NCBI GenBank assembly: GCA_028821785.1 | Contig: JAPKFC010000002.1 | Coordinates: 2,929 to 66,928, forward strand | DNA: 64,000 nucleotides | Source: Candidatus Poseidoniaceae archaeon | GTDB lineage: Archaea; Thermoplasmatota; Poseidoniia; Poseidoniales; Poseidoniaceae | Reading direction: 5' to 3' | Part shown: one piece after another, positions 1,611 through 58,356 of the stretch | How the letters are laid out: every line of letters starts with the position of its first letter | Position numbering within the stretch: position 1 is the first letter of the stretch | The notes under the pieces: model-generated | Database searches by the model: none | What the model saw: the letters and a program-made list of their open reading frames with translations, nothing else | What the model was told of the DNA's origin: nothing | Made by a program: the position numbers and the translations under genes

Positions 1611-1626
1611 GTTGCTTAAACAATCC

Positions 1627-17996: not shown

Positions 17997-18000
17997 TTAC

Positions 18001-18681: not shown

Positions 18682-18755
18682 TTATGTTTTATTTTGACAT
18701 GCTATGCAATCATTGCACCCGAAGCGATAAAGCGGGGCAGTTCAGCCCTTAACTT

Positions 18756-21700: not shown

Positions 21701-23360
21701 TGATATTGGCTATGATCTATTCTTAGAAGCCCCAGCCGGATGGCAAGCAGGATTCGACGATTTGGGCAGTGAACCGGGTGCGATTTCCGGTTCAACCGGA
21801 TTGATTGGCCAGGATAGCCAGAAAAACCTCGGCATCACATTCACTCCTCCGCAAGTAATGACTGGAGCAGGTGCCGAAAGAATGGTCAAATTAACGGCAG
21901 TTTCACAGACCGAAAACCCAGTTTCCTATGTATATAATATTCCAATCAAAGTAATGGAAATAAGAGATATCGATATTGACTTACAAAATAATTTTGGAAA
22001 GATGAGGCCAGATTCGTCTCTCAGCCTAATGTTTAGCATCCAGAATAAAGGAAATATCGACCTAGATTTAACTCCATCAATACAATTACCAAGTGGTTGG
22101 CAATGGGCTTCATCAACCGATATCATAGAGTTAAATTGGGCATCGACCAGAAATATCATTGTAACGGTTAATTCACAGGGATCTGGAAAATCAGGAGAAA
22201 TTCAATTCAATCTTGACAATGGCTCAGATAGGTATTCTTGGACCGGATATATTGATGTTGAAATCTTAGCGCAACCAACATTGGATTTTGCTTCACTTCA
22301 ACTTGAAGATGGAACCTCGTATGGCCATCCATTGGGTACTGGTTCACATCCGAGTGGAGAGAGTCTTAACTTCACTTGGCTAGTAGGCAATAACGCAGAT
22401 GTTGATTGGGAGCCTTCAGTTTCAGTCATTCTAGACCCGGGATTATTCGGAGAGTGCCAAGATGTTGGGGTTGTAGGATATTTAGAATTCCAATTTCTAC
22501 AATGTTCGATTCTGATTTCAGGAAATATGGCTCCTAAAAGTGAACCTTCCTTCACAGTGATATTGGAAGGTAATGGGGTAGAATATGTCGAACAAGTAGG
22601 GTTGTATGTAGCGTCGGTAGAATCTGCTATATGGGATGCATCAAGAAATGAAAAGTTCGCAACAGGAGTGGTAGAGACGGTATCAATCGATGTAACAAAC
22701 TCCGGTAATGTAGCATGGTCGTACAAAATCCAAGCCATCGCATCCGAAAATTGGTATTGCGAAGTAATCGGCAATGATGTAATATCTCTTGAAGCGGGTC
22801 AGTCAAAGGTTGTTAGAATCAACGTGAGGGCAGATCGTCCAGGCGATGGAACAATAACATTGCAATTTGAACAATCTAATCCGCTTTCAAATCCGAGTGT
22901 ATCATTTGATGTTTCAGCAGAAGGAGAGCCTACTGGGACCTCTAGTGAATCATTCATCAATAACGGAGTTGCTATCGCCCTAATTCTAGTAATATTGTCA
23001 TTAATTGGAGTTGTATTGTACAGAAATAGTAAGTCCGAAAAGAAGAACTTACCGTCGATCAACAGCCTTACATCTTCATCAGCGAACCAATTAGCGGCAC
23101 CGATAGCAGCTCCTTTGCCGCAGACATTCAACCCTCAACCAATAATTGAGCCAATACAAGCGATTGAAGAAAAGCAAGAAAATGATTCCCAGCCAGTTAC
23201 AATGTGTTGGTTGTGTAAATCTCCAGTTACAGAGGATATTATCGGTTGTCCTTCTTGTGGCGCAAGGTATCACGGAGTTGCAATAGACGGCTGTGATATT
23301 TCACAATTAGAACACTGCGCAAACTGCCAAGCACTTGCCAGCGAATTCATCAAAGCATGA
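18756..23360 (+). CDS. subtilisin-like (S8) serine protease fused to multiple CARDB/Ig-like adhesion repeats, a TM helix and a cytoplasmic zinc-ribbon tail
   Basis: S8 catalytic triad motifs VAVADSGLDGDHGDF, HGTHVACTVLG and GTSMATPNAAGAAAMV. C-terminal TM helix (VAIALILVILSLIGVVLY), then CWLCKSP...CPSCG...CANCQ. GTG at 18756, or ATG at 18780, gives the signal peptide MALCLVVIFVLQ. Confidence 0.85.
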   Translation: MQTSSSLRMALCLVVIFVLQSLSPMLHPTGEQTDVSQLDSSQTEWVRFDLVDGVYSDAVGEYDYTNSLEDRPNIASSRIGDFDQYGFTASRPLPMELMQARPDLSLLIVDDSIRMEQARQQLNDIQGLMIRELIAPSGLLIQGTSNSIQQASDVQGVVATHQVPLALLIDDAILDVMMLTDGTDALQGQAVRLEGWRDELGPVDSVELTDEQGFTIFQSLEEVSKVGLSEIIKWDEGRYEGQLNSEQIAELIIQPSVRSFRFNPQFTIDNDNARSNMKTTVMTSYFTTDLDGSGQMVAVADSGLDGDHGDFGTRVVSSNDVIGDGSTADTHSGHGTHVACTVLGDGTQGGYAGVAPAAELYFQAMENDNTGNFQSPSLNYLMNTAYSAGARTHTNSWGAKDASQQGKYDSEAEDVDDRANYYDKYYNGREGLTILFAAGNDGPGTGTVSPPATAKNILSVGNHQNRYSGAPDSLMSSSSRGPTDDGRIKPDIIAPGGYVRSCRAQEATDTSGSTWSNNWYLEYTGTSMATPNAAGAAAMVREYLEEIAQRPAPQGALVKALLVLGAQDIGTRDIPNNDEGWGRINLRETLAPQGGQGIWVDDRSVLSGSGNSKSYTFNLTQNNGKFKVVLTWSDERGSSFSTKKLVNNLDLIVTSPDGTIYKGNDFANGVSTTGGSADDTNNLEVVLLDYAMSGVWTVKAKNTYQGGSSAQTYSIAVMGHGVNDLRPDPMVMVDDFSMDVSIPQVGDQVHIETKVFNAGNVEAESFDVVFSVNATEITRKNIDLGAGSAKTLFWTWTPVASGQTTLTFTIDPDDDIEEILENNNQHNIVVNVTAPGVKLSSSTQTTFLDNTQSSATSWNVSLTNTALISTNASLFVDNLIHVESNLALSWYVGTTQANHSLEGQQSTEITVTLVHPTPPDPGTYRISLIGIDVDNGVNYPYALDLVVPSLSKVNIEYDYQIVPVHPVNTTSIDVRFFNIGNDDIGYDLFLEAPAGWQAGFDDLGSEPGAISGSTGLIGQDSQKNLGITFTPPQVMTGAGAERMVKLTAVSQTENPVSYVYNIPIKVMEIRDIDIDLQNNFGKMRPDSSLSLMFSIQNKGNIDLDLTPSIQLPSGWQWASSTDIIELNWASTRNIIVTVNSQGSGKSGEIQFNLDNGSDRYSWTGYIDVEILAQPTLDFASLQLEDGTSYGHPLGTGSHPSGESLNFTWLVGNNADVDWEPSVSVILDPGLFGECQDVGVVGYLEFQFLQCSILISGNMAPKSEPSFTVILEGNGVEYVEQVGLYVASVESAIWDASRNEKFATGVVETVSIDVTNSGNVAWSYKIQAIASENWYCEVIGNDVISLEAGQSKVVRINVRADRPGDGTITLQFEQSNPLSNPSVSFDVSAEGEPTGTSSESFINNGVAIALILVILSLIGVVLYRNSKSEKKNLPSINSLTSSSANQLAAPIAAPLPQTFNPQPIIEPIQAIEEKQENDSQPVTMCWLCKSPVTEDIIGCPSCGARYHGVAIDGCDISQLEHCANCQALASEFIKA

Positions 23361-26311
23361 TGCCGCTAATTAAAAAACGCTCACATTTTTGGTTTTATTA
23401 CACATCTGAGCATAGCCTTATGATAGTGATGGCTTGTCCGGGAGTCATGGACTCCCGTGGAAATCAAACAAGGAAGCAGTCAAAGGCTGCAATTCTCTTA
23501 ATGGCTTTGCTATTATTTTCCATGGTCCCTGCCATGGTCCCAACCGCTTCTGCTGATGGGGCACGTGACGCTTCTATAATTGTCACAATAAGTCCAAATG
23601 GTCAAGATATAAATCCAGGTGAATCCGGAGAATATACAATTCGTGTTCGCAATACAGGTTCAGATCCAGTGACTGTCTCAATTCAATCAAGTGAAGAAGG
23701 AACTGCGGAATGTGGTCAATATTCATCACAAGCAGGCCAAATCTCAGGACCCATAGATGCTGGAACATTTGAAGAGACTACTATGAATGTAACTTTGACT
23801 CAAACAGCTGAGGAAAGTTGTGATACAACGGTCACCGTTTCCGCCGCTGACGGAGCAACACCACCAGGTGCACCTGCTCAAGAATCTTCAACAGTTACTA
23901 CAACTGCAGGGGATGGCTCAGGTAGTGCAGTATTCGGTGTTGACTTGAAGATGGCTTCCCCGTCAAAGGACTGGAGTGGAGAAAGCGTTGTGGAGTTTGA
24001 ACTTGAAGTTGAAAATACAGGTCAAACAAATGAAACAATCACTTTGACCACCAATGAGGCATCAGGCCCAGGTTGCTCTAATACAGGTGCGATAACCGTC
24101 ACTCTAAGTGAAACTTCTGTTTCAGTCGATTCTAACGAAAGTGAATTTGTTACCGTTTCAGTTGAAGTTCCAGAGGGTCAAGAAGCAGACAAATATTGCT
24201 GGGATATTGACGGTGATGTTAGCAACGACCCATCACAGGAGACAACCGATAACCAAGAATTTGATTTGACAGTTCCAGAGTTGCATGAATGTTCTATTTC
24301 CTTGACTAAGAATTCCATTACAGTTGCACCCGGTGCAGAAGGAAATCTAAAGGTCATGTTCGTCAATGAAGGAAATGTAGACTGGACCATATCTGTTGGA
24401 AAATCCGGTTCAAAGGCGGGATGGGTGAGTGTTGATGGCGCATCCTCAGGAATTATGGACGAGGGTAAAGAATTCGATTTGTTAGTCAATCCTGATGATT
24501 CTGTTGAAGCAGGTTCAGAATCTGTTGTAGCGATTCAAGGTAAAGATGGTAGTTCTGTTAAATGTACGAAAGATCTTAGAATCATCTTAGGCCAATCTCA
24601 TGACGCTTCAGCTTCACTTTCTAACTCATTAATGTCAAACATCGAACCAGGTGATAATGGCACTACCACTCTGGTAGTTACAAATCAAGGAAATGGTGCA
24701 GATACTTTCAGAATCTCTTCTTCTTCACCACCTCAGGGTTGGAGCGTTGAACTGTCAAAATCAACAATTTCACTTGGTTCAAAATACGGCAATGAAAGAA
24801 GCGGAGACATCGAGGTTCAAGTTAACGTTCCGTATAATGCGCTCGCAGATGAACAAGTAGACATTGTTCTAACAGTCCAATCCAACAACGGAGCAGTTAG
24901 TTTTGCTGATGTTACATTGGCGGTTACAGTAGCGGCCAATCATGATATGGAAGTTGAAACAAGTTCACCCGATCAAACCGGACGCTCTGATACGGAAGTT
25001 AGTTTCCCAATTACAATTGAAAACAGCGGCAACATAGAAGACACATTCCGTTGTGCAGTAATGTCACAAACAGCTACTCCTAATTGGGCGACATCATTCG
25101 AAGATGCCGATGGCAATAAATTCACTGAAATCAACATTGCACCTAGAAGTACAATGCTCGTGTACCTTGTAGTGAGTATTGATGGCGAAGAAGAATTAGA
25201 TAGCAGCAGATTAACCATTCGAATAACCAACAAAGATGATACTAATTCACAAGATCTGGATGATGATGGAATACCAGACAATCAAAGAGAATTAATTATG
25301 TTAGCAATCCAATCGGATAGAAATTATCAGATGGATCTCCGTTTAGATGATGGCGGTTTAGATGGACGTACTGGAATGGCTACTCTAGCCCCAGATGGCG
25401 TTAAAGAATACGGTGTATGGGTCAAAAATACGGGTGATGGAAAAGACTACGCTGTGTTTGAGATAAATGGGTTAGAAGGGATTGCAACTAGGACTTTGAG
25501 AATGAATGGATTAGTGGTAGTGGATCCGATTCAAATTCCTGTTGGATATGGGATTTGGAACCTGACAAGAGGGCAATTCGTCTTGGACGAATCCGCAACG
25601 CCAATCACCGAATCTAGCAAAAATGGCGTAGAATCAAGAATGCTAGAATTAGATTTGTTTGTCGGCCATGAAGCAAGGCCATTCGAACAATACTTTTTCC
25701 TCACAATAACCGTCAACCCGAGTGCCGAAACAGGCGATGGCGGTCTGTTGGAAATTGTGGTTATGAGTGAGTCGAATTCAGCCAATCGTTCTGGAAGAGT
25801 TTCAGTCGCATTAGACGTTCAAATCATCTATGAACTTACCTTTATGAATCAAGAAATGGATGAAGAAATAGTCGTAGAATACGAGGTTTCTTTCTCGGAA
25901 AAGACGCAATTTGAAATTGAATTGCACAACACTGGTAATATACGTTCTGAATTCCGAGTTTTCACTTCAGAGAATTTACGCGGATGGAGTGTATCTCTAG
26001 AGAACACAGACGAATGTAGCCGTGAAGGTGGGGAGATGGTATGTTGGATAGATGTAGATTCATCAATTCTTATCGAAGTAACCGTACGTCCGCCAAGCGA
26101 TGCTGAGATGGATGACACATTCAAATTCACACTCTCTTCTGAACCAGTAGAAACCGGTGTAGTAGATCGCCAAAACCTTGAGTTTACCATACACGGCGCA
26201 CAAGATTCGGGATTATTCGGTGATACGTTGAGCAATAACTCTACTTCGTTGATCGCAGGTGGATTAGCAATCTCATTATTAATTGCATATTTGATGCGTA
26301 AAAAGCCATGA
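23357..26311 (+). CDS. large secreted surface protein with CARDB-like repeats and a C-terminal TM anchor
   Basis: Signal peptide from internal Met (AILLMALLLFSMVPAMVPTASA). Repeated all-beta domains. The C-terminus LIAGGLAISLLIAYLMRKKP has a sorting-signal-like layout of TM helix plus basic tail. Confidence 0.7.
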   Translation: MMPLIKKRSHFWFYYTSEHSLMIVMACPGVMDSRGNQTRKQSKAAILLMALLLFSMVPAMVPTASADGARDASIIVTISPNGQDINPGESGEYTIRVRNTGSDPVTVSIQSSEEGTAECGQYSSQAGQISGPIDAGTFEETTMNVTLTQTAEESCDTTVTVSAADGATPPGAPAQESSTVTTTAGDGSGSAVFGVDLKMASPSKDWSGESVVEFELEVENTGQTNETITLTTNEASGPGCSNTGAITVTLSETSVSVDSNESEFVTVSVEVPEGQEADKYCWDIDGDVSNDPSQETTDNQEFDLTVPELHECSISLTKNSITVAPGAEGNLKVMFVNEGNVDWTISVGKSGSKAGWVSVDGASSGIMDEGKEFDLLVNPDDSVEAGSESVVAIQGKDGSSVKCTKDLRIILGQSHDASASLSNSLMSNIEPGDNGTTTLVVTNQGNGADTFRISSSSPPQGWSVELSKSTISLGSKYGNERSGDIEVQVNVPYNALADEQVDIVLTVQSNNGAVSFADVTLAVTVAANHDMEVETSSPDQTGRSDTEVSFPITIENSGNIEDTFRCAVMSQTATPNWATSFEDADGNKFTEINIAPRSTMLVYLVVSIDGEEELDSSRLTIRITNKDDTNSQDLDDDGIPDNQRELIMLAIQSDRNYQMDLRLDDGGLDGRTGMATLAPDGVKEYGVWVKNTGDGKDYAVFEINGLEGIATRTLRMNGLVVVDPIQIPVGYGIWNLTRGQFVLDESATPITESSKNGVESRMLELDLFVGHEARPFEQYFFLTITVNPSAETGDGGLLEIVVMSESNSANRSGRVSVALDVQIIYELTFMNQEMDEEIVVEYEVSFSEKTQFEIELHNTGNIRSEFRVFTSENLRGWSVSLENTDECSREGGEMVCWIDVDSSILIEVTVRPPSDAEMDDTFKFTLSSEPVETGVVDRQNLEFTIHGAQDSGLFGDTLSNNSTSLIAGGLAISLLIAYLMRKKP

Positions 26312-41022: not shown

Positions 41023-42840
41023 TCAAGCGTTGGTTCTTCTTTGGAGGTATGAAATCGCGATTCCAGCGAATAATAGTGCGATTATTGAGGGTGCGAAAGA
41101 AGGCACTAACCCCGCACTTGTTATCGCTGCACCAGTGACTACCATGTGATTGTAATTATTTCCTTCATCATACTCATCGACTACATTGGCATAGTCTATC
41201 ACTAAGCGCAAATCGTATTGACCTGTTTTTGGAACTGTATAATTCCATATCATAGATTCAGTAGAATCTGAAAGACTTCCTGAGCCAAGAGTTCTTGCTT
41301 CCATCACCGTCCATTGTACAGTGGAAGAACGATCGGCTGGTGCAGATTCAAGTCTAACTACTACACTACCACCATAGTCCTGATTACTTTCCAAAACACT
41401 GGTTATTGTGACATTTCCAAAACTTTCACCAGGCCTTACCACTAACCTATCCAGATTAGTTTCAGTTTCATTCCAGTACAAGTCTAATCCCGGAAGAATT
41501 TGATATGATGCTGGTGCAGTTGTAATAGAGTTGCCAGCAATATCGTAAACCACTGCTTGAAGCATTAGATGTTGACGAGACTTTGTCGCCCAATTAGATA
41601 ATCCAATAGTGCCATCAAGACCACTGGTACCCAAAGTAATCCACCGTCCAGAAAGGTCGGGTGTTTGCCCAACTCCATTAGAGTCAAATCCATATTGAAT
41701 ATATGAGGCAGTTGTATCAATTCCAGATTGTCCATCAATGGCGCTGAAGGAAACATTGGCACCACCGACTTTACTGGTGGTCAATTCATCAACAGTCCAG
41801 CCAATCGCTTCAGGGTCGGTTGCATCGACTCTAATTGTAATCGTATCACTTGGTCCAGTATTTCCTACATTGTCAATTGCTCTAAATGCGATATTATGGA
41901 TTCCTTCAATCATTGTCAAAGTGGTTGAATCATTGTAAACAGAATTCCAAGTAACGCCAATATCATCAGACCATTCAACATGGCTAACACCACTGCCTTG
42001 AGCGTCATCGCTTCCAGAGATTAGACCGGATAGGGTGACAGTAGTACTCTGCTGCCATGAAGAACCATCTCCAATCGATACAGAACCGATACTAGGCCCC
42101 GTTCTATCAATTCCGATGAATATTGTAGAGGAGTTTGAAAGTCCGGAATTATCATAGACAGTTAGCCGAGGGTTCGAAGAACCTTCAGACATATTGCCAC
42201 TAGCCCAATCCCAGCCATAGCTGAGAGTCCCTGGTCCATCTGCAAGCGGAGCACTAGGTCCTGGGGCGTTGGTTAGTGTTGCTCGTTTCAGATCATCATC
42301 AATAGCGCCCCAACGAAATGAAATCGCTTCATTGGATTCAATATTGAACCATGCTCTATCGGTAACGGAATCCCCAGTTCCATAATCAGGATTCAAAACT
42401 TTGAAAATAGTTATTTCGGGAATGTGATTAGCAATATTGAATTCTCCACTGAGTGCGGTTGTTGTATTTGCTACATCATCATCCCATGCAGTAGCTCTTA
42501 GTGTGTAATTGCCATTCGTATACGCAGTCGAATCAAAATGTTTCAACCATGGGGTGCTGGTCAAGTTTGTTACTAGATTCCATGAACCAGAATCTAATAT
42601 CTCAATTAATATTGAAGAAATATTACCAGTTCCACTCAATGTAAAAGTAAGGGTGTGTAAACCTGTAATGTTGTCATCTACATTTGGTCCATTACTGAAT
42701 GCAATACTTGTATTAGAGGGTGAATTATTTACTATAATCGCATCTGGTAAAGTGCCAATCTCATCATTAGAATTTAATAATGGAGAGACAAGACTAGCGA
42801 GTAGAAAAACAAGTGCGATACTCACTGCCCTCCCCTGCAT
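41023..42840 (-). CDS. secreted surface protein with Ig/PKD-like repeats and a C-terminal TM anchor
   Basis: Signal peptide MQGRAVSIALVFLLASLVSP. The C-terminus SIIALLFAGIAISYLQRRTNA is a TM helix plus basic tail. Confidence 0.6.
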   Translation of the reverse strand: MQGRAVSIALVFLLASLVSPLLNSNDEIGTLPDAIIVNNSPSNTSIAFSNGPNVDDNITGLHTLTFTLSGTGNISSILIEILDSGSWNLVTNLTSTPWLKHFDSTAYTNGNYTLRATAWDDDVANTTTALSGEFNIANHIPEITIFKVLNPDYGTGDSVTDRAWFNIESNEAISFRWGAIDDDLKRATLTNAPGPSAPLADGPGTLSYGWDWASGNMSEGSSNPRLTVYDNSGLSNSSTIFIGIDRTGPSIGSVSIGDGSSWQQSTTVTLSGLISGSDDAQGSGVSHVEWSDDIGVTWNSVYNDSTTLTMIEGIHNIAFRAIDNVGNTGPSDTITIRVDATDPEAIGWTVDELTTSKVGGANVSFSAIDGQSGIDTTASYIQYGFDSNGVGQTPDLSGRWITLGTSGLDGTIGLSNWATKSRQHLMLQAVVYDIAGNSITTAPASYQILPGLDLYWNETETNLDRLVVRPGESFGNVTITSVLESNQDYGGSVVVRLESAPADRSSTVQWTVMEARTLGSGSLSDSTESMIWNYTVPKTGQYDLRLVIDYANVVDEYDEGNNYNHMVVTGAAITSAGLVPSFAPSIIALLFAGIAISYLQRRTNA

Positions 42841-43045
42841 ACTCTAGAGACGTTCGGGCTCAGCCTTCAATGCTACCCCTAGAAATGCTTCTTTTGACGA
42901 TTAAGTGAAGGTTACAATCTTTACCAACATCATAATTCCATAGCATCGTATGTATTTTGGCGAGCCAAAGAATCTCCAACACTTGGCAACTATAGGCATA
43001 GATTTGAGATGGGTTCAAGTGCTACGCAATACCACGCTTAGATAC

Positions 43046-45838
43046 ATGGCGAAAGAGTTGAAGTCCATACTGGTCGTAGTATTGTTGGCTCTGACAATAA
43101 TTCCTCTCTCAGTTTCGGCGGAAACTAGTGGTGGCATTCAGGCCTCACCATCTACTTTGAGTATATTGCCGACCTCTCCCCAAGCCGGTGACTCAATCAC
43201 TATTTTGCTAACACTTTACAACTCTCAACAATCCGATGCTTTCAATGTAGAATACTCCTTTTTCAAGGATGAAATAAGTTCTGAGAAGAGGATTGTAACG
43301 AATACTGTCAATATCCTCGGTGGATCAACTGCTGATGTTAGTGCAACATGGAATTCACTAACTGAAGGAACTCACAAAGTGTGGGTTACATTTTCTCATA
43401 ACGGTGATACTGAGGCATCATTTTACCTAGAGTTCGTAGTGACGGGGTTACCAAACCTGCAAATTGCTGAAACGGCATTATCTCCTGCAACTGATATTAA
43501 ATCCGGAGAGACGGTTACAGCATCAACTCGTATTACCAATACTGGTAGCGTTAATGCATCAGCCAGCACTCTTCATTTTTCAACATCCAGCGGTGAACAA
43601 CAATTTTTGCCAACTCCAGCAATAACCGCAGGTCAATCACAATGGGTTAACACCACATTTATTGCACCACAAAGTGGAACTCATACCATCTATCTCAATC
43701 CCGATTATTATGAAGAAATACACGAAGCATCTGAGATAAACAAAATTGTTGAACAATCTTTGTTAGTTGAGACCAGAATGGATGTCTATCATATTGGAGA
43801 CCTGACGATAAGTGTTGAAGAAGACGATTTAGAAGGCCCATGGACCATTGAAGGAACGCTGGGTAGAACCAATGGAACTGGAACTACTGAAGTCCAACTA
43901 CGTCTAGAGATTCCAACCGATAATGGTGGATTGCTAATGATGCCTCCATTTACTGTAAATCTCTCAGGCGCAGGATATGCAGAAAAGTCATGGAGTCAAG
44001 TACTGACGATTAATGATCTAGCTTCATTGAGCGATGGTCCTCATATTGTGACGGCACAAATAGACCCATTCAATTCAGGTAACTTCGTTCAAGAATCAAC
44101 AGATAATGATAGAACATCAGGCCAGATATCCATTTATCCAATTCCAGATATTTTTGTCGATGGAGATGCAATACCTTCTTCTTCATCGATTGCTTCAGGT
44201 GAAGATGTAACCTGGAGAGTTAGTATTTCCAATGTAGGAGATATCCAAGTGCGAGGAAGAATAGTTTACACTTGGGAAGGCGTCCAAAGTCAATCAGACT
44301 GGATCTATATCGATGCAAGTGCAACCCAACCATGGGATATTACATTGACCACATTAATCGGTTCACACTCAGCAGAATTTGAAGCACAATGGGTCCCACA
44401 TACAACCAGTTGGGATAGTAATCCATTGAATAGTCTGGCTACAGGTAGTATTTCTGTTGAGGCTCCATTGCGGTTGCAATGGGTCTATACATCTATTTCA
44501 TTGACTGATATAACTGGAAATACCGCCTCACAACCGTTGCAAGGCGGAGATTCATACACATTGTCAATTAATATGACGAGTATTGAAACTGGTAATGTGT
44601 CATTCGATTGTAAAGATGGTTCTGGAACTTTGTTAGAGACAATGTTTGTAACTATAGAAGAGAGAGGAGACAGAGCCTCAGTTTCCTGTAACTTCGTCGC
44701 TTCATCGCCAATTAGCACACTCCGAATTTCACCATCTGACATCACAGTTACTAGTACGTTTACGCGTGCCTTCCCAACTGTTGCTACCGATGATGGTGCA
44801 ACAGATGCTGAAACATCCGCTAAGGGTACAATGGTTTTGCTTGGAGGCGGTGTTCTTGGGTTGATCGCATTACTAGTAGTGGCATATATTCTTACCAGAG
44901 AAAGAGAAGAAGAAGTGGAAAGAGATATTTTCGATTATTGCCCATCATGTGATGGTGAATTAGAAGGGGTCGAAGACCGCTGTCCACATTGCTCATTCAA
45001 CCTTAAGAAAGCAAGAAAGCAATTCCATGATTGTCATGAATGTTCAGAATCTATTCCAGATTTGATGGAAGATTGCCCGTATTGTGGTGCTAAGCAAGAT
45101 GTGTCGTCATTCTTTGAGCAACGTCAAAGAAGAGTTGTAGAGGAGAAAGAACTTATTCCTATTGAGGAAGAGGATGATGAAGATGAAATTGTTACAGGAA
45201 CAGAAGACTTTGCATCGACAGTTCAAGAATTTGGTTATGATGAAGATGATCTCGGGCAAGAATGGGATAAGAATTTGAAGAGTGCTGAGGAAGAAGTTGA
45301 AGCTGCATACGATAGAAAACATGCAGATGAATTAGCGCTTGAAGGCCTCACAGAAGAAGAGATTGAAGAATTGAAGAGCGAGGTTACAACGACACTCACG
45401 AGCGCTAAAGATGCCGCAGTTGGTGTCGGAATTGACGAGATGCTCGGAGGTCGTGAACTCCATGCGCACTTGGATGATGGAGAAGATCTATCGGCAAGTG
45501 ATGCAGGAATTAGAGAGCAAATATTCAATGTTACAGGTGAAGATGGAGTTCTACCAGGAGACAAGTTTGAAGTTGGAATGAGTGCAACCGATAATTCATT
45601 AGCAGGAAATGAGGTTAAAGATTCAACAACAGATTTCTCCTTTGAAGAGGATGATGCACCACTTTCAGCATCGACTATGTCCGATGCAGAAGTTGCAACT
45701 GCAAGGGAGGCGAAGAAGCCAAAACGCCGCGCCACTAAGCGAAGAGAAGATGCCTCGCAAGTAGCCGAATGTGGAGCATGTGGAGCAGATATTCCAGTTG
45801 AAGCCAATGAATGTGGTACTTGCGGTGCAAAGTTCTAA
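43046..45838 (+). CDS. large surface protein with CARDB-like repeats, a TM helix and an acidic cytoplasmic domain flanked by two zinc-ribbon clusters
   Basis: Signal peptide MAKELKSILVVVLLALTIIPLSVSA (ATG at 43046; the ORF track starts at 42950). TM helix MVLLGGGVLGLIALLVVAYIL. Cysteine clusters CPSCDGE..CPHCSF..CHECSE..CPYCG and a terminal CGACGADIPVEANECGTCGAKF. Confidence 0.65.
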   Translation: MAKELKSILVVVLLALTIIPLSVSAETSGGIQASPSTLSILPTSPQAGDSITILLTLYNSQQSDAFNVEYSFFKDEISSEKRIVTNTVNILGGSTADVSATWNSLTEGTHKVWVTFSHNGDTEASFYLEFVVTGLPNLQIAETALSPATDIKSGETVTASTRITNTGSVNASASTLHFSTSSGEQQFLPTPAITAGQSQWVNTTFIAPQSGTHTIYLNPDYYEEIHEASEINKIVEQSLLVETRMDVYHIGDLTISVEEDDLEGPWTIEGTLGRTNGTGTTEVQLRLEIPTDNGGLLMMPPFTVNLSGAGYAEKSWSQVLTINDLASLSDGPHIVTAQIDPFNSGNFVQESTDNDRTSGQISIYPIPDIFVDGDAIPSSSSIASGEDVTWRVSISNVGDIQVRGRIVYTWEGVQSQSDWIYIDASATQPWDITLTTLIGSHSAEFEAQWVPHTTSWDSNPLNSLATGSISVEAPLRLQWVYTSISLTDITGNTASQPLQGGDSYTLSINMTSIETGNVSFDCKDGSGTLLETMFVTIEERGDRASVSCNFVASSPISTLRISPSDITVTSTFTRAFPTVATDDGATDAETSAKGTMVLLGGGVLGLIALLVVAYILTREREEEVERDIFDYCPSCDGELEGVEDRCPHCSFNLKKARKQFHDCHECSESIPDLMEDCPYCGAKQDVSSFFEQRQRRVVEEKELIPIEEEDDEDEIVTGTEDFASTVQEFGYDEDDLGQEWDKNLKSAEEEVEAAYDRKHADELALEGLTEEEIEELKSEVTTTLTSAKDAAVGVGIDEMLGGRELHAHLDDGEDLSASDAGIREQIFNVTGEDGVLPGDKFEVGMSATDNSLAGNEVKDSTTDFSFEEDDAPLSASTMSDAEVATAREAKKPKRRATKRREDASQVAECGACGADIPVEANECGTCGAKF

Positions 45839-46569: not shown

Positions 46570-47778
46570 TCAAGCCAATGCTTCAGAGCATGCATAATTG
46601 CGTGAGCAGTTTTTACATTTACCTGGCCTTTCATGGTTTCTTTTGGCATCGTTGTGGACCATCAATCTCTGGACTTCAGCAATAGCATCGAACAACATTT
46701 CTTTATTCCCATCATCCCATGAGATTTGATGCAAATCCTCATTTCCATATCTCAGAACCCCATAAGGAGCGGGTCTTTTAGTATTAATTTCTACTAAATG
46801 CAAATACGCCAAGACTTGTATCTTGTGAGAGCGGTGAGGGTGTTTTGGGACTCTTCCTGTTTTCTGTTCCACCGGAATAAACTCACCATCTACAATCACT
46901 ATCTGGTCTGGTCTTCCTCGAAGGCCGGTTATTGGATCTTTCAATAGACTCGAAGAATCTTCATTATCAGAATATGCAATTTCTGTATTTTCTTGCAAAC
47001 CAACAATTTCCCTTGCGATTTCTAATGCGTTTTCTACGAGCAGGGCTTTTTGCAATTGCCAAGAAGCGATCAGTGTCCAAGCCATTGCCAATATAGCCAA
47101 CAAGAAACCTGCTTGACTTTTGTTCTCTGCACCTACTAGGGCGATTGAATGCAGAGCCAATGCTATTGCAGACAGAAATAATGAGGCCTCTACTCGACCC
47201 GCTTCAAACCATCCACCGATAAAACCTTGAGGCTGTAATACCGATTCAATATGATATGTGTCATCTGCATGAAAATTGCTTTTTGATTTTGCAATAGTAT
47301 TCGTCCATCCAATCCATTCTCTCCATGGCAGATAAACTGCCACAACTCCAGTAATTAGAAGAGATAATGCCCAGAGTGCCAAATATCTAGCAATCGACAA
47401 AGGGGTGTGAATAACATCGTCTATCAATGAAAAAACAATAGCATCTATGATGAAAACTAAGATAACAGCAAACCACCATGACCAGATGACCATAGCCATT
47501 CGCAATTTTGCGTGTTTCTCTTGATAGTCTTTCACTTGGCCATGAATTGTGGCGTGTTTTTCGACTCCAGCTGTAATTGCTTCACCTTGGCCACGTTTCC
47601 CTTCTCGCGCTAGCGACCAAGAGAGAGGACAATATTCGTGGCGTTCCAAATCGCTGGCACTAACTCTTAACGGTTCACCATTTTGTAATCGCCAAACACC
47701 GTCCTCGTGGCGTTCAGCACCACTAAATTGGTCTGATTTAGGAGAATCTTGAGCCATCTTATTTCTCCCCGTAGGCAC
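46570..47778 (-). CDS. Cas4/RecB-family PD-(D/E)xK nuclease (DUF83-like) with an Fe-S cysteine signature and a four-helix transmembrane insertion
   Basis: N-terminal Cys (HEYCPLSW). Motif II/III VDGEFIPVEQK. QhxxY motif KIQVLAYLHL. C-terminal C-x2-C-x5-C (CKNCSRNYAC). Four hydrophobic helices lie between the N-terminal Cys region and motif II. Confidence 0.6.
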   Translation of the reverse strand: MPTGRNKMAQDSPKSDQFSGAERHEDGVWRLQNGEPLRVSASDLERHEYCPLSWSLAREGKRGQGEAITAGVEKHATIHGQVKDYQEKHAKLRMAMVIWSWWFAVILVFIIDAIVFSLIDDVIHTPLSIARYLALWALSLLITGVVAVYLPWREWIGWTNTIAKSKSNFHADDTYHIESVLQPQGFIGGWFEAGRVEASLFLSAIALALHSIALVGAENKSQAGFLLAILAMAWTLIASWQLQKALLVENALEIAREIVGLQENTEIAYSDNEDSSSLLKDPITGLRGRPDQIVIVDGEFIPVEQKTGRVPKHPHRSHKIQVLAYLHLVEINTKRPAPYGVLRYGNEDLHQISWDDGNKEMLFDAIAEVQRLMVHNDAKRNHERPGKCKNCSRNYACSEALA

Positions 47779-55521: not shown

Positions 55522-55758
55522 TCAAACCCACTTGCCTTGAACTGCAAGCATTCCAGTGATAAGAGCATGAACATCAATTTCTTCACCACTTTCACTGGCA
55601 AATCTGAGTCTATTTTTGATCGCATCAATCAGTTGCTCGTCAACTTCTTCATCACTAATGAAGCGAATGAATTCTTCAATAGTCTTGCCTCTGCCTAATG
55701 CAATTGCTAAACGTGCTTTTTGCTCTTCGTCTTCATCTTTAGGGTTTCTAACACTCAT
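55522..55758 (-). CDS. small acidic hypothetical protein (78 aa), terminal gene of the E1/JAB operon
   Basis: Its start overlaps the JAB stop by 4 nt. There is no C-terminal GG and no obvious beta-grasp signature. It is predicted to be helical. Confidence 0.4.
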   Translation of the reverse strand: MSVRNPKDEDEEQKARLAIALGRGKTIEEFIRFISDEEVDEQLIDAIKNRLRFASESGEEIDVHALITGMLAVQGKWV

Positions 55759-56306
55759 ACAATCACTTCACTGTTCTCTATTATTTGTTGATACCATTCA
55801 TCCCATGGAGTGACTGGTTCATCACTCCAACTTGACAAAGGTCCACTTGCATTAATTGTACTAGAGGCGTCATAATCTTTATTGAAAGCGAGATTGATTG
55901 CGACCTTTGGACCTGGTGCGCCAAGTACGATTGCTTGACGAAGGATTCCACTTCCAATCGCTAAACTATTGGTGTCGGTAGCACTCCAGTATGCAGCAAA
56001 CCCTGGGTGAGTATGAACCCATGTTTTGAAGGGCATTCTAGCACCAACTGGAGGTTTTAATGGTACTCTGCCAGAAGTTCCCCAGTCAATGAATACCTCA
56101 TCATCTGCATCGATAAGAACTGATGTCTCAAGACCTGCTAACAATGATATTGCATAAACAGCATCCCATCTTCCAGCCAAAGCACTATCGCTTTGGAAAT
56201 CGAGCAAAAGGGGTGAATTAACTTGCTTATTTTCAGCAAGATCACAGATATGTTCCCATGTTTCCCTATTTTCACACAATTGTTCAATTCCTGGAATATA
56301 AATCAT
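55755..56306 (-). CDS. JAB/MPN+ (JAMM) metalloprotease-domain protein
   Basis: An exact JAMM motif, HTHPGFAAYWSATD (H-x-H-x7-S-x2-D), with an upstream acidic DDEVF. It overlaps both neighbouring genes by 4 nt. Confidence 0.65.
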   Translation of the reverse strand: MIYIPGIEQLCENRETWEHICDLAENKQVNSPLLLDFQSDSALAGRWDAVYAISLLAGLETSVLIDADDEVFIDWGTSGRVPLKPPVGARMPFKTWVHTHPGFAAYWSATDTNSLAIGSGILRQAIVLGAPGPKVAINLAFNKDYDASSTINASGPLSSWSDEPVTPWDEWYQQIIENSEVIV

Positions 56307-56941
56307 TCATTCACCTCCGGAAAGTGCATTTGACCATAGGTTATGCTGGCCATACTCTGTACTGGTGTAGGTTTGCCACGTAATTGCTGTAGAGCCCACT
56401 GTGCACCGAAAGCAGCAGCGTTGAGGAAGCCGAATTCTAGATTCCCAGATTCAAGAGCACCCTCATGTTGGCATGATTTAGCAGGATGATCTGGAGTCAT
56501 AGCTTCAACCAATGCATTTTGACTATCGCTTGTCATTACTAGGTGACCATCTCCACCACAGCGTAAATCAGCCCAAGGAACTTGTAACTGGTGAATTAGA
56601 CGTCTTGGTTCAGGTCTATCGACGCAAACTATGACTAAATCAGCATCCTTTAGTTGCTCTGAGTAGCGCAAGTCCTCTGCGATTGCTCTAACGGTTACAC
56701 TTGATTCGCCGTTAGTAATATGGCGTTGAGCTAAAGCGTCAACCTTTGCTTCACCAATATCGTTACTGGTAAATCGTTGATGTCCTAAATTGGTTGCTTC
56801 AACCAAGTCTCCATCCATGATTATTATTTGACAATTAATTCCTATTCTTCTCAGTGCAGGGGTCAAGACATCAACAAGTGTAGAACCTATTCCTCCAGCA
56901 CCGATAATCAGTAGTGTTTTGCTATCCGCAATTTCCTTCAT
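56303..56941 (-). CDS. minimal E1-like adenylyltransferase (ThiF/MoeB/HesA family)
   Basis: Rossmann LLIIGAGGIGS, MDGDLVEATNLGHQRF (the D-x-D-x-E-x-N-L-x-R-Q E1 motif), DADLVIVCVD and downstream Cys residues. The likely start is the internal MKEIADSK; the ORF track extends it to 57019, overlapping GT4. Confidence 0.7.
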   Translation of the reverse strand: MKEIADSKTLLIIGAGGIGSTLVDVLTPALRRIGINCQIIIMDGDLVEATNLGHQRFTSNDIGEAKVDALAQRHITNGESSVTVRAIAEDLRYSEQLKDADLVIVCVDRPEPRRLIHQLQVPWADLRCGGDGHLVMTSDSQNALVEAMTPDHPAKSCQHEGALESGNLEFGFLNAAAFGAQWALQQLRGKPTPVQSMASITYGQMHFPEVNE

Positions 56942-56997
56942 ACAATAATAATTGATTGAGGACATATAAAGAATTGAACAAGATAGCAATGTCTCGG

Positions 56998-58356
56998 TTA
57001 CTGAGCACTCTTGATACATTCTAGGAGCAAGTTTTCAAGCGCACTCATTTGAACATCGATTGTAAAATTTTCTTCAACATATTTGCGTCCACTTTCAGCC
57101 CATAATTTGCGAGTATCTTCATCTTGGGATAAGCGATAAGCCTCCTCCCACAATTCATAATCTTCTCGTGAAATTAACATTCCACAATCAGCATTCTTCA
57201 TCGTGTAATGGAATCCACCTTCATCGACCATCAATGCTGGAACTCCAATTGCCATCGCCTCTAATGGAGTCAATCCGAACGGTTCGCCATGTGCGTGGCT
57301 AACCATGGCCACAGAGCCTCTAATCACGGCTCTAAGCGCTGACTGACTTAGTCTTGGCATACAATAAACATCAACGCCCAAGGAACTTCCATGAGCCAGT
57401 ATTTTTTCTTTATCACCCTTTTCTCCACCACCGATTTGAAGCAATGAAAGTCCAGTTCCTTGCAAGGATTGAACCGTCTCCCATGCACCCTTTACAAAGG
57501 ATAATTTACCAATAGTTACAACATATTGATCCGGTAATTTCTTTGCTTTAGATAGATTCTTTTCCGCCCTAATAAGCGCTTGTTGAATTTCATCAGCAGC
57601 ATCATTCTCTTCAGAGTCTGCAAGTTGTGGCCATAAATCCCAATCCAAAACATGCATTAAATGCGTGGCTTCAAGCAATTGACCTTTGCTATTGCGGCGT
57701 GGAGCAGAACCATTACTCTTATTTTCATCACAAGCTAAATCGTAAATCTCTCTCAATTGCTTTTGAATCCACATTGAATTTCCAGAAATAGCCGAACCCT
57801 TCATCGCAGTTAAGCGGCGAACTAGTTTTTGGTCAACTCTACGTTGATTCGCAAAAATCATATTGGTTAGCCACAACGGTCTTTTTAATTTACCATCCAA
57901 GTGTCGATGAAGAACATCTTCATACAACCAGCGCGGTGGTTCAAGACAATGATAGTGCAATCCTTTACCAGTGAGAGTTTTATCCGAAACAGAATTTAGG
58001 ATTTCTAATGTTCCGCGGCAAACTGAAAAGTGTATGGCATCATATTGTGACCAATCAATTTTCATATTTTTCCATTGTTTAGTGGCTGCAGAGCTTTGTC
58101 CTGCAGTAATTTCAGTGATTGCACCTTGAGGCCAGGAGAAAGGCTTCTTTGGTTGTATGATTTCAATATCACAATCACCTAACAATTCCTTTGCTTGTTG
58201 TGGAAATTGAAGGGTTGCGAGACTGACTTGCCATCTATTGGAGGCATGACGAAGTAATTGCAATAATTCTCGTTCAGCCCCGCCCAGAGTATTGAAAGAA
58301 CCTCTTACAATCAAAACGCGCAAAGGAGAATCAGCAACATCAGTCTCCTCAGCCAT
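56998..58356 (-). CDS. glycosyltransferase family 4 (GT-B)
   Basis: The EX7E region EPFGLTPLEAMAIGVPALMVDEGG. Confidence 0.7.
   Translation of the reverse strand: MAEETDVADSPLRVLIVRGSFNTLGGAERELLQLLRHASNRWQVSLATLQFPQQAKELLGDCDIEIIQPKKPFSWPQGAITEITAGQSSAATKQWKNMKIDWSQYDAIHFSVCRGTLEILNSVSDKTLTGKGLHYHCLEPPRWLYEDVLHRHLDGKLKRPLWLTNMIFANQRRVDQKLVRRLTAMKGSAISGNSMWIQKQLREIYDLACDENKSNGSAPRRNSKGQLLEATHLMHVLDWDLWPQLADSEENDAADEIQQALIRAEKNLSKAKKLPDQYVVTIGKLSFVKGAWETVQSLQGTGLSLLQIGGGEKGDKEKILAHGSSLGVDVYCMPRLSQSALRAVIRGSVAMVSHAHGEPFGLTPLEAMAIGVPALMVDEGGFHYTMKNADCGMLISREDYELWEEAYRLSQDEDTRKLWAESGRKYVEENFTIDVQMSALENLLLECIKSAQ

What the first reader, a model, noticed from the sequence alone, without database searches (positions are those of the whole stretch)
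55522..58356. Translationally coupled minimal E1-like / JAB(JAMM) / small-protein triad embedded in a glycosylation gene cluster
Three minus-strand genes overlap by 4 nt each: a ~210-aa ThiF/MoeB-type E1-like adenylyltransferase (GAGGIGS and DGDLVEATNLGHQRF motifs), a 183-aa JAB/MPN+ protein with a perfect JAMM motif (HTHPGFAAYWSATD), and a 78-aa acidic protein. No ORF of 60 aa or more ending in Gly-Gly with a beta-grasp look is present, and no E2 is present. A GT4 glycosyltransferase lies immediately upstream, GDP-mannose dehydratase is divergent, and another GT4 is nearby. E1+JAB pairs are the core of prokaryotic ubiquitin-like conjugation/deconjugation systems (SAMP/UbaA/JAMM in archaea; Cap2/Cap3-type and Bil-type systems in defence) and of sulfur-carrier activation pathways (CysO/Mec+, thiosugar biosynthesis). 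This exact arrangement does not match any of those cleanly. It lacks a canonical Ubl/E2, has an unrelated small terminal protein, and is linked to sugar metabolism. Hypotheses: (i) a reduced Ubl-like tagging or defence module whose modifier is the 78-aa protein or is encoded elsewhere; (ii) an E1-activated carrier system feeding glycan or cofactor modification.
Basis: partly seen in the sequence, partly recalled or inferred. Interest (0 to 1): 0.75.

Follow-up and report, generated by a model that had tools for sequence, protein, structure and literature searches.

The report
Ubiquitin-less E1–JAMM cassette, marine archaea
Three tightly coupled genes (a minimal ubiquitin-activating-type enzyme, a JAMM-type peptidase and an 78-residue helical protein) are the stripped-down Marine Group IIa version of a previously undescribed archaeal ubiquitin-like tagging cassette whose sister versions still carry a ubiquitin-like gene; the link to sugar genes is only neighbourhood.

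Summary
On the minus strand lie a 212-aa ThiF-type E1 (56303-56941), a 183-aa JAMM/MPN+ protein (55755-56306) and a 78-aa acidic protein (55522-55758). The junctions are ATGA overlaps. No GG-ending ORF and no E2 were found.

The triad keeps the same order in about 80 species-level genomes of Poseidoniales (142 matched). It always sits in the same chromosomal slot. No relative was found in viral contigs.

The 78-aa protein is predicted all-helical, not beta-grasp.

Relatives of the E1 explain the system. One sister clade fuses one or two ubiquitin-like domains ending LVGG to the E1. An outgroup clade has a free Ubl (LVGG plus 1-2 residues) upstream of an E1-JAB fusion. Both keep the small helical protein and a TFIIB-zinc-ribbon protein.

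The window therefore carries a derived form of an E2-less Ubl/E1/JAMM cassette that has lost the Ubl and the TFIIB-like gene from the locus. The catalytic residues remain invariant.

Most likely the enzymes still act on a GG-tailed Ubl encoded elsewhere. This is inferred, not shown.

The GT4 gene is a facultative neighbour (44 of 64 loci), so the glycan link is not supported. A defence role is not supported either.

Verdict: a new variant of a known kind, of moderate to high interest.

The parts
56303..56941 (-). Minimal E1-like adenylyltransferase, 212 aa. It has a single ThiF domain, no N-terminal Ubl or peptide-clamp domain, no rhodanese domain and no CxxC zinc motifs.
   Evidence: Pfam ThiF E 4e-21. 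All NCBIfam ThiF/MoeB/UbaA/PRTRC models score far below their cut-offs. Residues invariant across the three clades: GxGGIG, D43, D45, N51, H54, Q55, K66, D108, R113, D125, R127 and S156-C157-Q158. H54 takes the place of the canonical Arg of NLxRQ in the alignment to MccB. The 212-aa start is supported by orthologues and by NCBI record MDE0556954.1.
55755..56306 (-). JAMM/MPN+ metallopeptidase-like protein, 183 aa. An N-terminal three-helix extension precedes the JAB core. Its start overlaps the E1 stop (ATGA).
55522..55758 (-). 78-aa acidic helical protein. It is the third conserved subunit. Its start overlaps the JAB stop (ATGA).
   Evidence: No family hit. AF2 gives four helices and no strand, pLDDT 61, with low confidence for the N-terminal 22 residues. 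The profile search returned 468 matches; the 120 listed are 78-91 aa, and every taxon name given by a source is Poseidoniales or Euryarchaeota archaeon. Nearly invariant N-terminal motif (V/A)RxPxD..E and G22/G24. It is present in the sister clade next to the Ubl-E1 fusion (L086, E 3e-22). A same-sized, same-position protein follows the E1-JAB fusions.
56964..56970 (-). TATA-like box TTTATAT, 23-29 nt upstream of the E1 ATG, inside the 56-nt GT4-E1 spacer. It is a probable archaeal promoter for a leaderless triad mRNA (inferred).
   Evidence: The block CAATTCTTTATATG is invariant in 6 genomes whose flanking spacer bases vary. Sequence read.

Best explanation
The triad is the Marine Group IIa (Poseidoniaceae) form of a vertically inherited, Thermoplasmatota-specific, E2-less ubiquitin-like modification cassette.

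The full cassette, seen in sister clades, has four or five parts:
- a ubiquitin-like protein ending in LVGG, either free with 1-2 extra residues or fused once or twice to the N-terminus of the E1;
- a minimal E1;
- a JAMM peptidase, separate or fused to the E1 C-terminus;
- a helical protein of about 80 aa;
- a nearby TFIIB-zinc-ribbon protein.

In the window's clade the Ubl and the TFIIB-like gene are no longer in the locus, while E1, JAMM and the small protein remain under strong constraint.

Proposed mechanism:
1. The E1 dimer adenylates a C-terminal carboxylate, most probably the GG tail of a Ub-like protein now encoded elsewhere in the genome.
2. It may hold that protein as a thioester or acyl intermediate on the invariant Cys157.
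3. It passes the protein directly to target lysines without an E2, as in archaeal sampylation.
4. The JAMM enzyme matures the precursor tail and reverses the conjugates.
5. The 78-aa helical protein is a stoichiometric accessory subunit (adaptor, regulator or dedicated target), bound through its conserved N-terminal motif.

Shown: the gene anatomy, the conservation, the fold assignments, the fusions, the existence of the Ubl in sister clades and its absence here.
Inferred: every enzymatic step, the trans-encoded Ubl and the role of the small protein.
For: - Conservation as a unit: 142 GTDB species matched, 80 loci examined, same order E1-JAB-small in the same slot between GDP-mannose dehydratase and a FadB-like gene. 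4-nt overlaps are conserved.
- Rosetta-stone fusions E1-JAB: P0294 and P0299, jab.hmm 6e-30 and 1e-34.
- Ubl-E1 fusions: P0267 (two Ubl domains), P0268, P0277, P0280, P0282. Named members of the P0267 cluster are Candidatus Poseidoniales archaeon.
- L086 reads Ubl-E1 | JAB | small (E 3e-22) with 4-nt overlaps, next to TYW1 as in the window.
- L088-L091 read free Ubl '...LQGGH' or '...LVGGSC' | E1-JAB | 85-86-aa helical protein.
- Of the 43 metagenomic loci found with the Ubl, all 36 that extend far enough beyond the Ubl have it next to the E1; the other 7 are cut off first. Free Ubls end in GG plus 1-2 residues.
- The Ubl profile hits only ubiquitin in the PDB, and the alignment ends exactly on the GG.
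- An NJ tree of the E1 domain gives three clean clades. The Ubl-less clade C, holding the window, is sister to clade B, and clade A is the outgroup. The Ubl was therefore ancestral and lost from the locus once.
- E1 and JAMM catalytic residues are invariant across all three clades, which argues for the same chemistry and a similar substrate tail.
- A TFIIB-Zn-ribbon protein is linked in clades A and B but not in C.
- No relatives in viral contigs.
Against: - No Ubl was found for the window's clade. The Ubl profile finds nothing in the 64-kb window or in 85 related loci, and whole genomes could not be searched. The key substrate is therefore hypothetical.
- The similarity of the Ubl domain to ubiquitin is weak per domain (E 0.2-1).
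- The E1 replaces the canonical Arg of NLxRQ with His and lacks the zinc CxxC motifs. Assignment of Cys157 to the E1 catalytic-cysteine position rests on remembered MoeB/ThiF sequence, because PDB alignments stop before it.
- One lineage (L004) has E1 and JAB without the small gene, so the small protein is not indispensable.
- There is no biochemical or expression evidence at all.
Confidence: 0.55

Rival explanations
1. Ubl-independent system. After the Ubl was lost, the E1 activates the C-terminus of the 78-aa helical protein itself. That protein would be a non-beta-grasp modifier or carrier, comparable in concept to Pup or LysW, and the JAMM enzyme would release or trim it.
For: The small protein is the only partner that is both conserved and translationally coupled in this clade. 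Its C-terminus always ends in the same register with a small residue, mostly Ala, or Val/Ile in the window's subclade. A Trp lies close to the end in all three clades. No Ubl was found locally.
Against: The same small protein coexists with a real GG-ended Ubl in clades A and B. Its last three residues vary (QWA, KWV, AQA, EHA, DNV, and in relatives GQT, QQA), unlike an E1 substrate tail. Its most conserved part is the N-terminus. It is missing in L004, which keeps E1 and JAB. E1 active-site residues are unchanged relative to the Ubl-bearing clades. The model is helical to near the C-terminus, leaving only a five-residue non-helical tail.
Confidence: 0.15
2. Sulfur-carrier or metabolite-activating pathway. 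The E1 adenylates a carrier protein or a carboxylate metabolite for sulfur insertion or for glycan or cofactor modification linked to the neighbouring GT4 and GDP-mannose dehydratase genes. The JAMM enzyme would expose or recycle the carrier, as in CysO/Mec+ or QbsCDE.
For: The best NCBIfam hits are ThiF-type adenylyltransferases. GG-x-x precursor tails of the sister-clade Ubls resemble QbsE-type carriers that a JAMM enzyme trims (the Qbs comparison is from memory). GT4 is adjacent in 44 of 64 loci. E1-like enzymes such as TcdA and MccB act on non-Ubl carboxylates (PDB hits).
Against: No rhodanese, cysteine desulfurase, thiazole, molybdopterin or other sulfur-acceptor genes occur in the window or in any related locus. 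GT4 is facultative, it is separated from the E1 by a conserved promoter-like box, and it is absent from clades A and B. The conserved extra partner in clades A and B is a TFIIB-zinc-ribbon protein, not an enzyme. All ThiF/MoeB equivalog scores are far below their cut-offs.
Confidence: 0.1
3. Anti-phage defence module of the Cap2/Cap3 (CBASS), Bil/Bub or 6A-MBL type.
Against: There is no E2 domain, CD-NTase, Ubl or effector. The JAB, the small protein and the GT4 have no PADLOC hit. The cassette sits at one fixed chromosomal position in about 80 species, with a vertical pattern. No relatives occur in 2.9 million viral contigs. The NCBIfam 6A-MBL cap2_3 model scores 32 bits against a cut-off of 320.
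Confidence: 0.03
4. The cassette is a decaying remnant: an inactive leftover after the Ubl and the TFIIB-like partner were lost. A variant of this reading is an ordinary housekeeping ThiF/MoeB beside an unrelated JAB.
For: The presumed substrate gene and the TFIIB-like neighbour are gone from the locus.
Against: All three genes are intact in about 80 species that have diverged to 50-60% identity. Catalytic motifs are invariant and translational coupling is conserved. E1-JAB fusions in relatives show the pair works together. ThiF, MoeB and UbaA equivalog models are far below threshold.
Confidence: 0.05

Closest known systems
E2-less Ubl + E1 + JAB gene neighbourhoods of prokaryotes (Iyer, Burroughs & Aravind 2006, PMC1779556), including the Jab-E1 and Ubl-E1 fusions noted in archaea (Makarova & Koonin 2010, PMC2948915)
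   Same: An E1-like adenylyltransferase and a JAB peptidase are encoded together. In the sister clades there is a GG-ended Ubl and domain fusions among the three. No E2 or E3 is present.
   Different: The E1 and JAB here are a separate, very divergent clade. The JAB is not recognised by Pfam, and the E1 has NLxHQ instead of NLxRQ and no zinc motif. An extra ~80-aa helical subunit is always present. A TFIIB-zinc-ribbon protein is linked in clades A and B. The window's clade lacks the Ubl in cis. The cassette is vertically inherited at a fixed locus rather than sporadic. Four of the five full-text searches run were aimed at this system in Marine Group II and found no description of it; the fifth retrieved the general literature cited here.
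Archaeal sampylation (SAMP1-3 / UbaA / HvJAMM1 of Haloferax volcanii)
   Same: The concept is the same: E2-independent Ubl conjugation by a MoeB-like E1, reversed by a JAMM protease, in an archaeon.
   Different: The UbaA equivalog model scores 35 bits against a cut-off of 450. The sister-clade Ubl looks like ubiquitin rather than MoaD or ThiS. In Haloferax the genes are dispersed, whereas here E1, JAB and the small protein form one translationally coupled operon. No SAMP-like gene lies in the window.
CBASS Cap2/Cap3 and Bil/Bub bacterial ubiquitination-like defence systems
   Same: An E1 domain is paired with a JAMM peptidase. Structural neighbours of the JAB model include Cap3 and BilC. Cap2 models hit the E1 domain.
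   Different: There is no E2 domain or protein, no CD-NTase and no effector. The cassette is not mobile and not in viral contigs.
PRTRC-type and other minimal ThiF proteins of mobile elements; MccB
   Same: The minimal E1 is about 190-210 aa. PRTRC_ThiF is among the top NCBIfam hits (58.8 bits). The next outgroup in the E1 search is a ~190-aa ThiF in a mobile-element-like context with bpMoxR and VWA genes (L092). MccB is the best PDB sequence hit.
   Different: The PRTRC score is far below its cut-off of 144.75, and there are no ParB-related or other PRTRC genes. The MccB peptide-clamp N-domain is absent, because the E1 starts about 12 residues before the glycine loop.

Membership tests
E1-like (ThiF/MoeB/UBA) adenylyltransferase superfamily | Rossmann-type ThiF domain with a GxGxxG nucleotide loop, scoring above the Pfam threshold | tested here: met
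   PF00899 E 4.1e-21, 75.7 bits against 28.1, covering 212 of 238 profile positions. GAGGIG is invariant.
E1-like (ThiF/MoeB/UBA) adenylyltransferase superfamily | Canonical ATP-binding motif D-x-D...NLxRQ (Arg finger), Lys, and catalytic Asp | tested here: inconclusive
   D43, D45, N51, Q55, K66 and D108 are invariant. The Arg position is an invariant His (NLGHQ aligned to MccB NLTRQ). Whether His, or the following Arg, substitutes functionally is unknown.
E1-like (ThiF/MoeB/UBA) adenylyltransferase superfamily | Structural zinc site (two CxxC pairs) and a crossover-loop catalytic Cys | tested here: inconclusive
   No CxxC motif is present, so the zinc site is not met. An invariant S-C-Q Cys157 lies about 50 residues after the catalytic Asp. 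Its equivalence to ThiF Cys184 or MoeB Cys187 is inferred from memory, because PDB alignments end before it.
JAMM/MPN+ metalloproteases | Active-site motif E...HxHx7Sx2D | tested here: met
   E60, H98, H100, S108 and D111 are invariant in 20 homologues spanning 43-84% identity. The motif is also kept in the E1-JAB fusions.
JAMM/MPN+ metalloproteases | MPN fold | tested here: met
JAMM/MPN+ metalloproteases | Match to a curated family model (Pfam JAB or Prok-JAB) above threshold | tested here: not met
   Prok-JAB scores 14.5 bits against a cut-off of 25, over 19 residues only. None of the 120 listed homologues has a precomputed Pfam hit.
Archaeal sampylation (SAMP/UbaA/HvJAMM1) | UbaA-type E1 and a beta-grasp SAMP with C-terminal GG | tested here: not met
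   NF047750 scores 35 bits against 450. No GG-ended ORF and no Ubl-profile hit in the window. Whole-genome absence could not be tested.
CBASS type II (Cap2/Cap3) | E1-E2 fusion protein, a CD-NTase whose C-terminus is conjugated, and an effector | tested here: not met
   PADLOC hits cover only the E1 part of the Cap2 models. The other genes have no hits. Neighbours are GT4, GDP-mannose dehydratase, GST, TYW1 and a FadB-like gene.
Bil / Bub bacterial ubiquitination-like systems | Ubl + E2 + E1 + JAB four-gene operon | tested here: not met
   No E2 and no Ubl in the window. BilC and BubCD appear only as distant structural neighbours.
PRTRC system | PRTRC ThiF equivalog plus ParB-related and PRTRC A-E proteins | tested here: not met
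   TIGR03736 scores 58.8 bits against 144.75. The JAB and the small protein have no meaningful NCBIfam hit (one chance-level match each at E 0.019 and 0.042, far below cut-off).
MccB/PaaA-type peptide-modifying E1-like enzymes | N-terminal peptide-clamp (RRE-like) domain and a short precursor peptide | tested here: not met
   The E1 begins about 12 residues before the glycine loop. The match to MccB covers only the Rossmann half.
Sulfur-carrier systems (ThiS/ThiF, MoaD/MoeB, CysO/Mec+, QbsCDE) | Equivalog-level E1, a GG-ended carrier, a sulfurtransferase, and acceptor-pathway genes in the neighbourhood | tested here: not met
   All ThiF and MoeB models are far below their cut-offs. No rhodanese, desulfurase or biosynthetic partner occurs in the window or in related loci.
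Thermoplasmatota Ubl-E1-JAMM-small cassette (defined here) | E1 clade with NLxHQ and S-C-Q signatures; JAB with (L/R)E(T/V)SVLID...HTHP...YWS.TD; ~80-aa helical protein immediately downstream; translational coupling | tested here: met
Thermoplasmatota Ubl-E1-JAMM-small cassette (defined here) | Ubiquitin-like protein or domain ending in (L/I)(V/Q)GG, adjacent to or fused with the E1, and a TFIIB-zinc-ribbon protein nearby | tested here: not met
   Both are present in clades A and B. Both are absent from the window and from the 85 clade-C loci.

The most novel reading that the evidence does not exclude
In Marine Group IIa archaea an E1 and a JAMM peptidase that descend from a ubiquitin-like tagging cassette now work without any beta-grasp modifier. 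They would use the 78-aa helical protein, or another non-Ubl carboxylate, as the activated species. This would be a natural example of an E1/deconjugase pair re-targeted to a non-ubiquitin-fold substrate in one of the most abundant archaeal groups of the surface ocean.
Probability: 0.15. Interest if true: 0.85.

Novelty: new variant of a known kind. Interest (0 to 1): 0.6.

Why it matters
Poseidoniales are among the most abundant planktonic archaea, they are uncultured, and nothing is known about their protein-modification systems.

This work defines an undescribed, lineage-wide cassette of four or five components: a Ub-like protein, a minimal E1, a JAMM peptidase, a helical subunit and a TFIIB-zinc-ribbon partner. 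It occurs in three architectures that form a clean evolutionary series: free Ubl with an E1-JAB fusion, Ubl-E1 fusion, and Ubl-less.

The series offers:
- a very small, E2-free ubiquitin-like system suited to biochemical reconstitution;
- a Ubl that resembles ubiquitin more than ThiS or MoaD, outside the Asgard and TACK archaea;
- a possible link between Ubl tagging and a TFIIB-like transcription factor;
- in the window's clade, a natural experiment showing what an E1/JAMM pair does once its cis-encoded Ubl is gone.

It also shows that the apparent embedding in a glycosylation cluster is plain synteny, which prevents a wrong functional annotation.

Tried and rejected
- Small protein as a known family: Pfam, NCBIfam and PADLOC gave nothing. 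A Foldseek search with its low-confidence model gave no meaningful match (E > 6).
- Small protein as a homologue of the Myb/HTH-like helical domains fused to some related E1s (P0273, P0277, P0284, P0286, P0289): hmmsearch found no hit and hhalign gave probability 0.2%, so this was rejected.
- Hidden Ubl in the window: a scan for ORFs ending in GG or GG plus up to 6 residues, and an hmmsearch --max with the Ubl profile over all stop-to-stop segments of at least 30 aa in the window and 85 loci, found none.
In all 36 that extend far enough the Ubl is next to the E1. The search is biased towards close relatives of the query, so it does not exclude a divergent unlinked Ubl.
- Longer JAB homologues as JAB-small fusions: P0095 and P0103-P0105 turned out to carry a 60-85-aa loop insertion, not a fusion.
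- The 340-aa gene after the small gene in L001 as a counterpart of the TFIIB-like proteins: no similarity.
- Literature: four full-text searches aimed at MGII or Poseidoniales with ubiquitin-like, ThiF or JAB terms found no description of this system.
- Viral origin: no relatives in IMG/VR.

Full report
**1. What is in the window**

Four co-oriented ORFs lie on the minus strand:
- a GT4 glycosyltransferase (56998-58356);
- a ThiF-domain protein;
- a 183-aa protein (55755-56306);
- a 78-aa protein (55522-55758).

The ThiF ORF runs 238 aa from the farthest start codon. Orthologues, and the identical deposited protein MDE0556954.1 ('ThiF family adenylyltransferase [Candidatus Poseidoniaceae archaeon]', 212 aa), begin at the ATG at 56941. 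GT4 and the E1 gene are therefore 56 nt apart and do not overlap.

Both internal junctions are ATGA overlaps. The spacer holds the block CAATTCTTTATATG, which is invariant in six genomes while the bases around it vary. Its TATA-like box lies 23-29 nt upstream of the ATG. This fits an archaeal promoter driving a leaderless mRNA for the triad. That reading is inferred.

Neighbours are the divergent GDP-mannose 4,6-dehydratase, a GST-like gene, TYW1, a convergent FadB-like gene, a second GT4 and an HxlR regulator. TYW1, the homologue names and the record titles show that the window comes from a Marine Group IIa archaeon of the Poseidoniaceae.

**2. The three proteins**

*E1.*
- Pfam ThiF scores E 4e-21.
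- Every curated NCBIfam model (ThiF, MoeB, UbaA, PRTRC ThiF, cap2_3, TcdA) is far below its cut-off.
- PADLOC Cap2 models match only the E1 domain.
- The best solved relatives by sequence are MccB, Uba1, Uba4 and ThiF, over the Rossmann half only.
- Invariant residues include GxGGIG, D43, D45, N51, K66, D108 and an S-C-Q cysteine at 157.
- The Arg of the canonical NLxRQ motif is an invariant His.
- There are no CxxC zinc motifs, no rhodanese domain and no N-terminal domain.

*JAB.*
- Sequence models barely see it: Prok-JAB E 0.033 and Rpn11 E 0.26.
- The JAMM motif E60/H98/H100/S108/D111 is invariant.
- The AlphaFold model (pLDDT 91) is an MPN fold preceded by three helices.

*Small protein.*
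- It is acidic and has no family hit.
- AlphaFold predicts four helices and no strand (pLDDT 61), so it is not a beta-grasp.
- Its most conserved part is the N-terminal motif (V/A)RxPxD..E.
- The chain always ends in the same register with a small residue, but the last three residues vary.

**3. Conservation**

The JAB family has 128 database homologues. None has a Pfam hit, and every taxon name given by a source is Poseidoniaceae or Euryarchaeota archaeon. A scan of one genome per GTDB species found 142 species. The record titles of the 80 loci kept name Poseidoniales (or Poseidoniaceae, Poseidonia) or unclassified archaeal MAGs.

In the 80 loci fetched, the order E1-JAB-small is kept in the same slot between the GDP-mannose dehydratase and the FadB-like gene. 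The E1/JAB 4-nt overlap is kept in 71 of 79 loci.

GT4 lies directly upstream in only 44 of 64 informative loci. No relative occurs in 2.9 million viral contigs.

This is the pattern of a vertically inherited core operon. It is not the pattern of a mobile defence island. The glycosylation genes are syntenic neighbours only.

**4. The decisive evidence: relatives of the E1**

A full HMMER scan of 1.84 billion representative proteins found 33 clusters at E <= 1e-30. Several are fusions:
- P0294 and P0299 are E1 followed by a JAB homologous to the window's JAB (6e-30 and 1e-34).
- P0267 (twice), P0268, P0277, P0280 and P0282 carry N-terminal domains of about 65 aa. In P0267, P0268 and P0280 the domain ends in ...LVPGLVGG or ...LLLGG just before the E1; in P0277 and P0282 it ends in a single Gly (...MQG, ...GLIG).

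A profile of that domain hits only ubiquitin in the PDB. The hit is weak per domain (E 0.2-1), but the alignment ends exactly on the GG.

Genomic contexts:
- L086, on a Poseidoniales contig next to TYW1, reads Ubl-E1 | JAB | 81-aa homologue of the small protein (E 3e-22), with 4-nt overlaps.
- L088-L091, from 'Candidatus Thermoplasmatota archaeon', read free Ubl (...LQGGH or ...LVGGSC) | E1-JAB fusion | 85-86-aa helical protein.

A metagenome scan with the Ubl returned 43 loci. In all 36 that extend far enough beyond the Ubl, it is adjacent to or fused with the E1; the other 7 are cut off first. Free Ubls end in GG plus one or two residues (LY, FC, LC, H, L, Q, C), the hallmark of precursors trimmed by a peptidase.

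A TFIIB-zinc-ribbon protein of about 330 aa follows the small gene in clade A, and lies roughly 0.1-1.6 kb upstream of the Ubl-E1 gene in clade B.

Neither the Ubl profile nor the TFIIB-like proteins find anything in the 64-kb window or in the 85 clade-C loci.

**5. Evolutionary reading**

A neighbour-joining tree of the E1 domain gives three clean clades:
- clade A: free Ubl plus E1-JAB fusion;
- clade B: Ubl-E1 fusion;
- clade C: Ubl-less, holding the window, the MGIIa loci, L001 and L004.

Clades B and C are sisters, and clade A is the outgroup. A ~190-aa ThiF from a mobile-element-like context (L092) lies outermost.

Parsimony says the ancestor had the Ubl, and that clade C lost the Ubl and the TFIIB-like gene from the locus once. 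The NJ tree is a rough method. A maximum-likelihood analysis is still needed.

**6. Mechanism**

The full cassette is an E2-less Ubl system of the kind predicted by Iyer et al. 2006 (PMC1779556) and exemplified by sampylation. Its inferred steps are:
1. The JAMM enzyme exposes the GG.
2. The E1 adenylates it and may thioesterify it on Cys157.
3. The Ubl is conjugated, or handed on, without an E2.
4. The JAMM enzyme reverses the conjugates.

For the window's clade, the E1 and JAMM active sites are identical to those of the Ubl-bearing clades. All three genes are intact across roughly 50% sequence divergence. The most economical reading is therefore that they still act on a GG-tailed Ubl encoded elsewhere. 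I put this at about 0.55.

The small protein is a universal, translationally coupled accessory subunit. Its role as adaptor, regulator or dedicated target is unknown. It is unlikely to be the modifier for four reasons:
- it coexists with the Ubl in clades A and B;
- it is helical;
- its tail is variable;
- it is absent from L004.

The rival that it has become the E1 substrate after the Ubl was lost cannot be excluded (about 0.15). The other rivals are:
- a sulfur-carrier or glycan pathway (about 0.1): no sulfurtransferase or acceptor genes anywhere, and GT4 is facultative;
- defence (about 0.03);
- an inactive remnant (about 0.05).

**7. Comparison with known systems and novelty**

Membership in SAMP/UbaA, Cap2/Cap3, Bil/Bub, PRTRC, MccB and the sulfur-carrier families was tested feature by feature and is not met (see the membership table).

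The general kind, a prokaryotic Ubl/E1/JAB operon, is known. Several features appear undescribed in the literature searched (background):
- the particular cassette;
- its extra helical subunit;
- the TFIIB-like partner;
- the ubiquitin-like rather than ThiS/MoaD-like modifier;
- the NLxHQ E1 variant;
- the Ubl-less form fixed throughout MGIIa.

Public annotation calls the E1 'ThiF family adenylyltransferase' and the other two proteins 'hypothetical'.

Verdict: a new variant of a known kind, interest 0.6.

**8. Limits**

- No structure prediction of the Ubl domain or of complexes was possible.
- The mapping of Cys157 onto the E1 catalytic cysteine rests on memory of the MoeB and ThiF sequences.
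- All enzymology is inferred.

Noticed in passing
window 6903-7004 (-): Rfam finds a tRNA (52.8 bits) spanning 102 nt. It is presumably an intron-containing archaeal tRNA. ARAGORN reported no tRNA in the window.
   Followed up: partly
window 10804-26311 (+): A run of very large, probably secreted or surface proteins: 802 aa with PKD domains, 1554 aa with no Pfam hit, 1534 aa with subtilase S8 + CARDB + Ig-like domains, and 984 aa with Ig-like domains. Further CARDB and Ig-like proteins lie at 41023-45838.
   Followed up: partly
window 46570-47778 (-): A 402-aa protein with a Cas4 / PD-(D/E)XK nuclease domain. Tandem Repeats Finder reported no repeat array near it, but it is not suited to detecting CRISPR arrays. 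The same gene is syntenic in L004.
   Followed up: no
L086 1-2053 (+): A gene with a single-subunit, phage T7-type RNA polymerase domain (PF00940, over 858 aa) lies on a 137-kb Poseidoniales contig a few kb from the Ubl-E1 cassette. This is unusual for an archaeal chromosome and may mark an integrated element.
   Followed up: no
L088 7658-8638, L086 6876-7895, L120 1829-2824 and others: A ~330-aa protein with an N-terminal TFIIB-type zinc ribbon (below the Pfam threshold) and an unassigned remainder is consistently linked to the Ubl-bearing cassettes of clades A and B. It is absent from the window's clade. It is a candidate target or partner of the Ubl system.
   Followed up: partly
proteins P0095, P0103, P0104, P0105 (JAB orthologues): Some orthologues of the JAB protein carry a 60-85-aa insertion in the loop between the core sheet and the GPL..WS motif. 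These are not fusions with the small protein.
   Followed up: partly
proteins P0273, P0277, P0284, P0286, P0289 (E1 relatives): Several related E1s carry a ~45-aa Myb/HTH_23-like helical domain at the N- or C-terminus (W[TS]xxE..L...G....IA....RS.GAI..R). It is not detectably related to the 78-aa protein. It is another hint of a link between this E1 clade and DNA-binding or transcription proteins.
   Followed up: partly
L092 (Logan SRR22388187 contig): The next outgroup of the E1 clade is a ~190-aa minimal ThiF in a mobile-element-like neighbourhood (bpMoxR AAA+, VWA, DUF6876). About a hundred similar ~190-aa ThiF clusters appeared in the representative search.
   Followed up: partly
window 1-2000: GC content is 0.374 and AT skew 0.277 in the first 2 kb, clearly different from the rest of the window (GC 0.40-0.46). 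No tandem repeat was found there.
   Followed up: no
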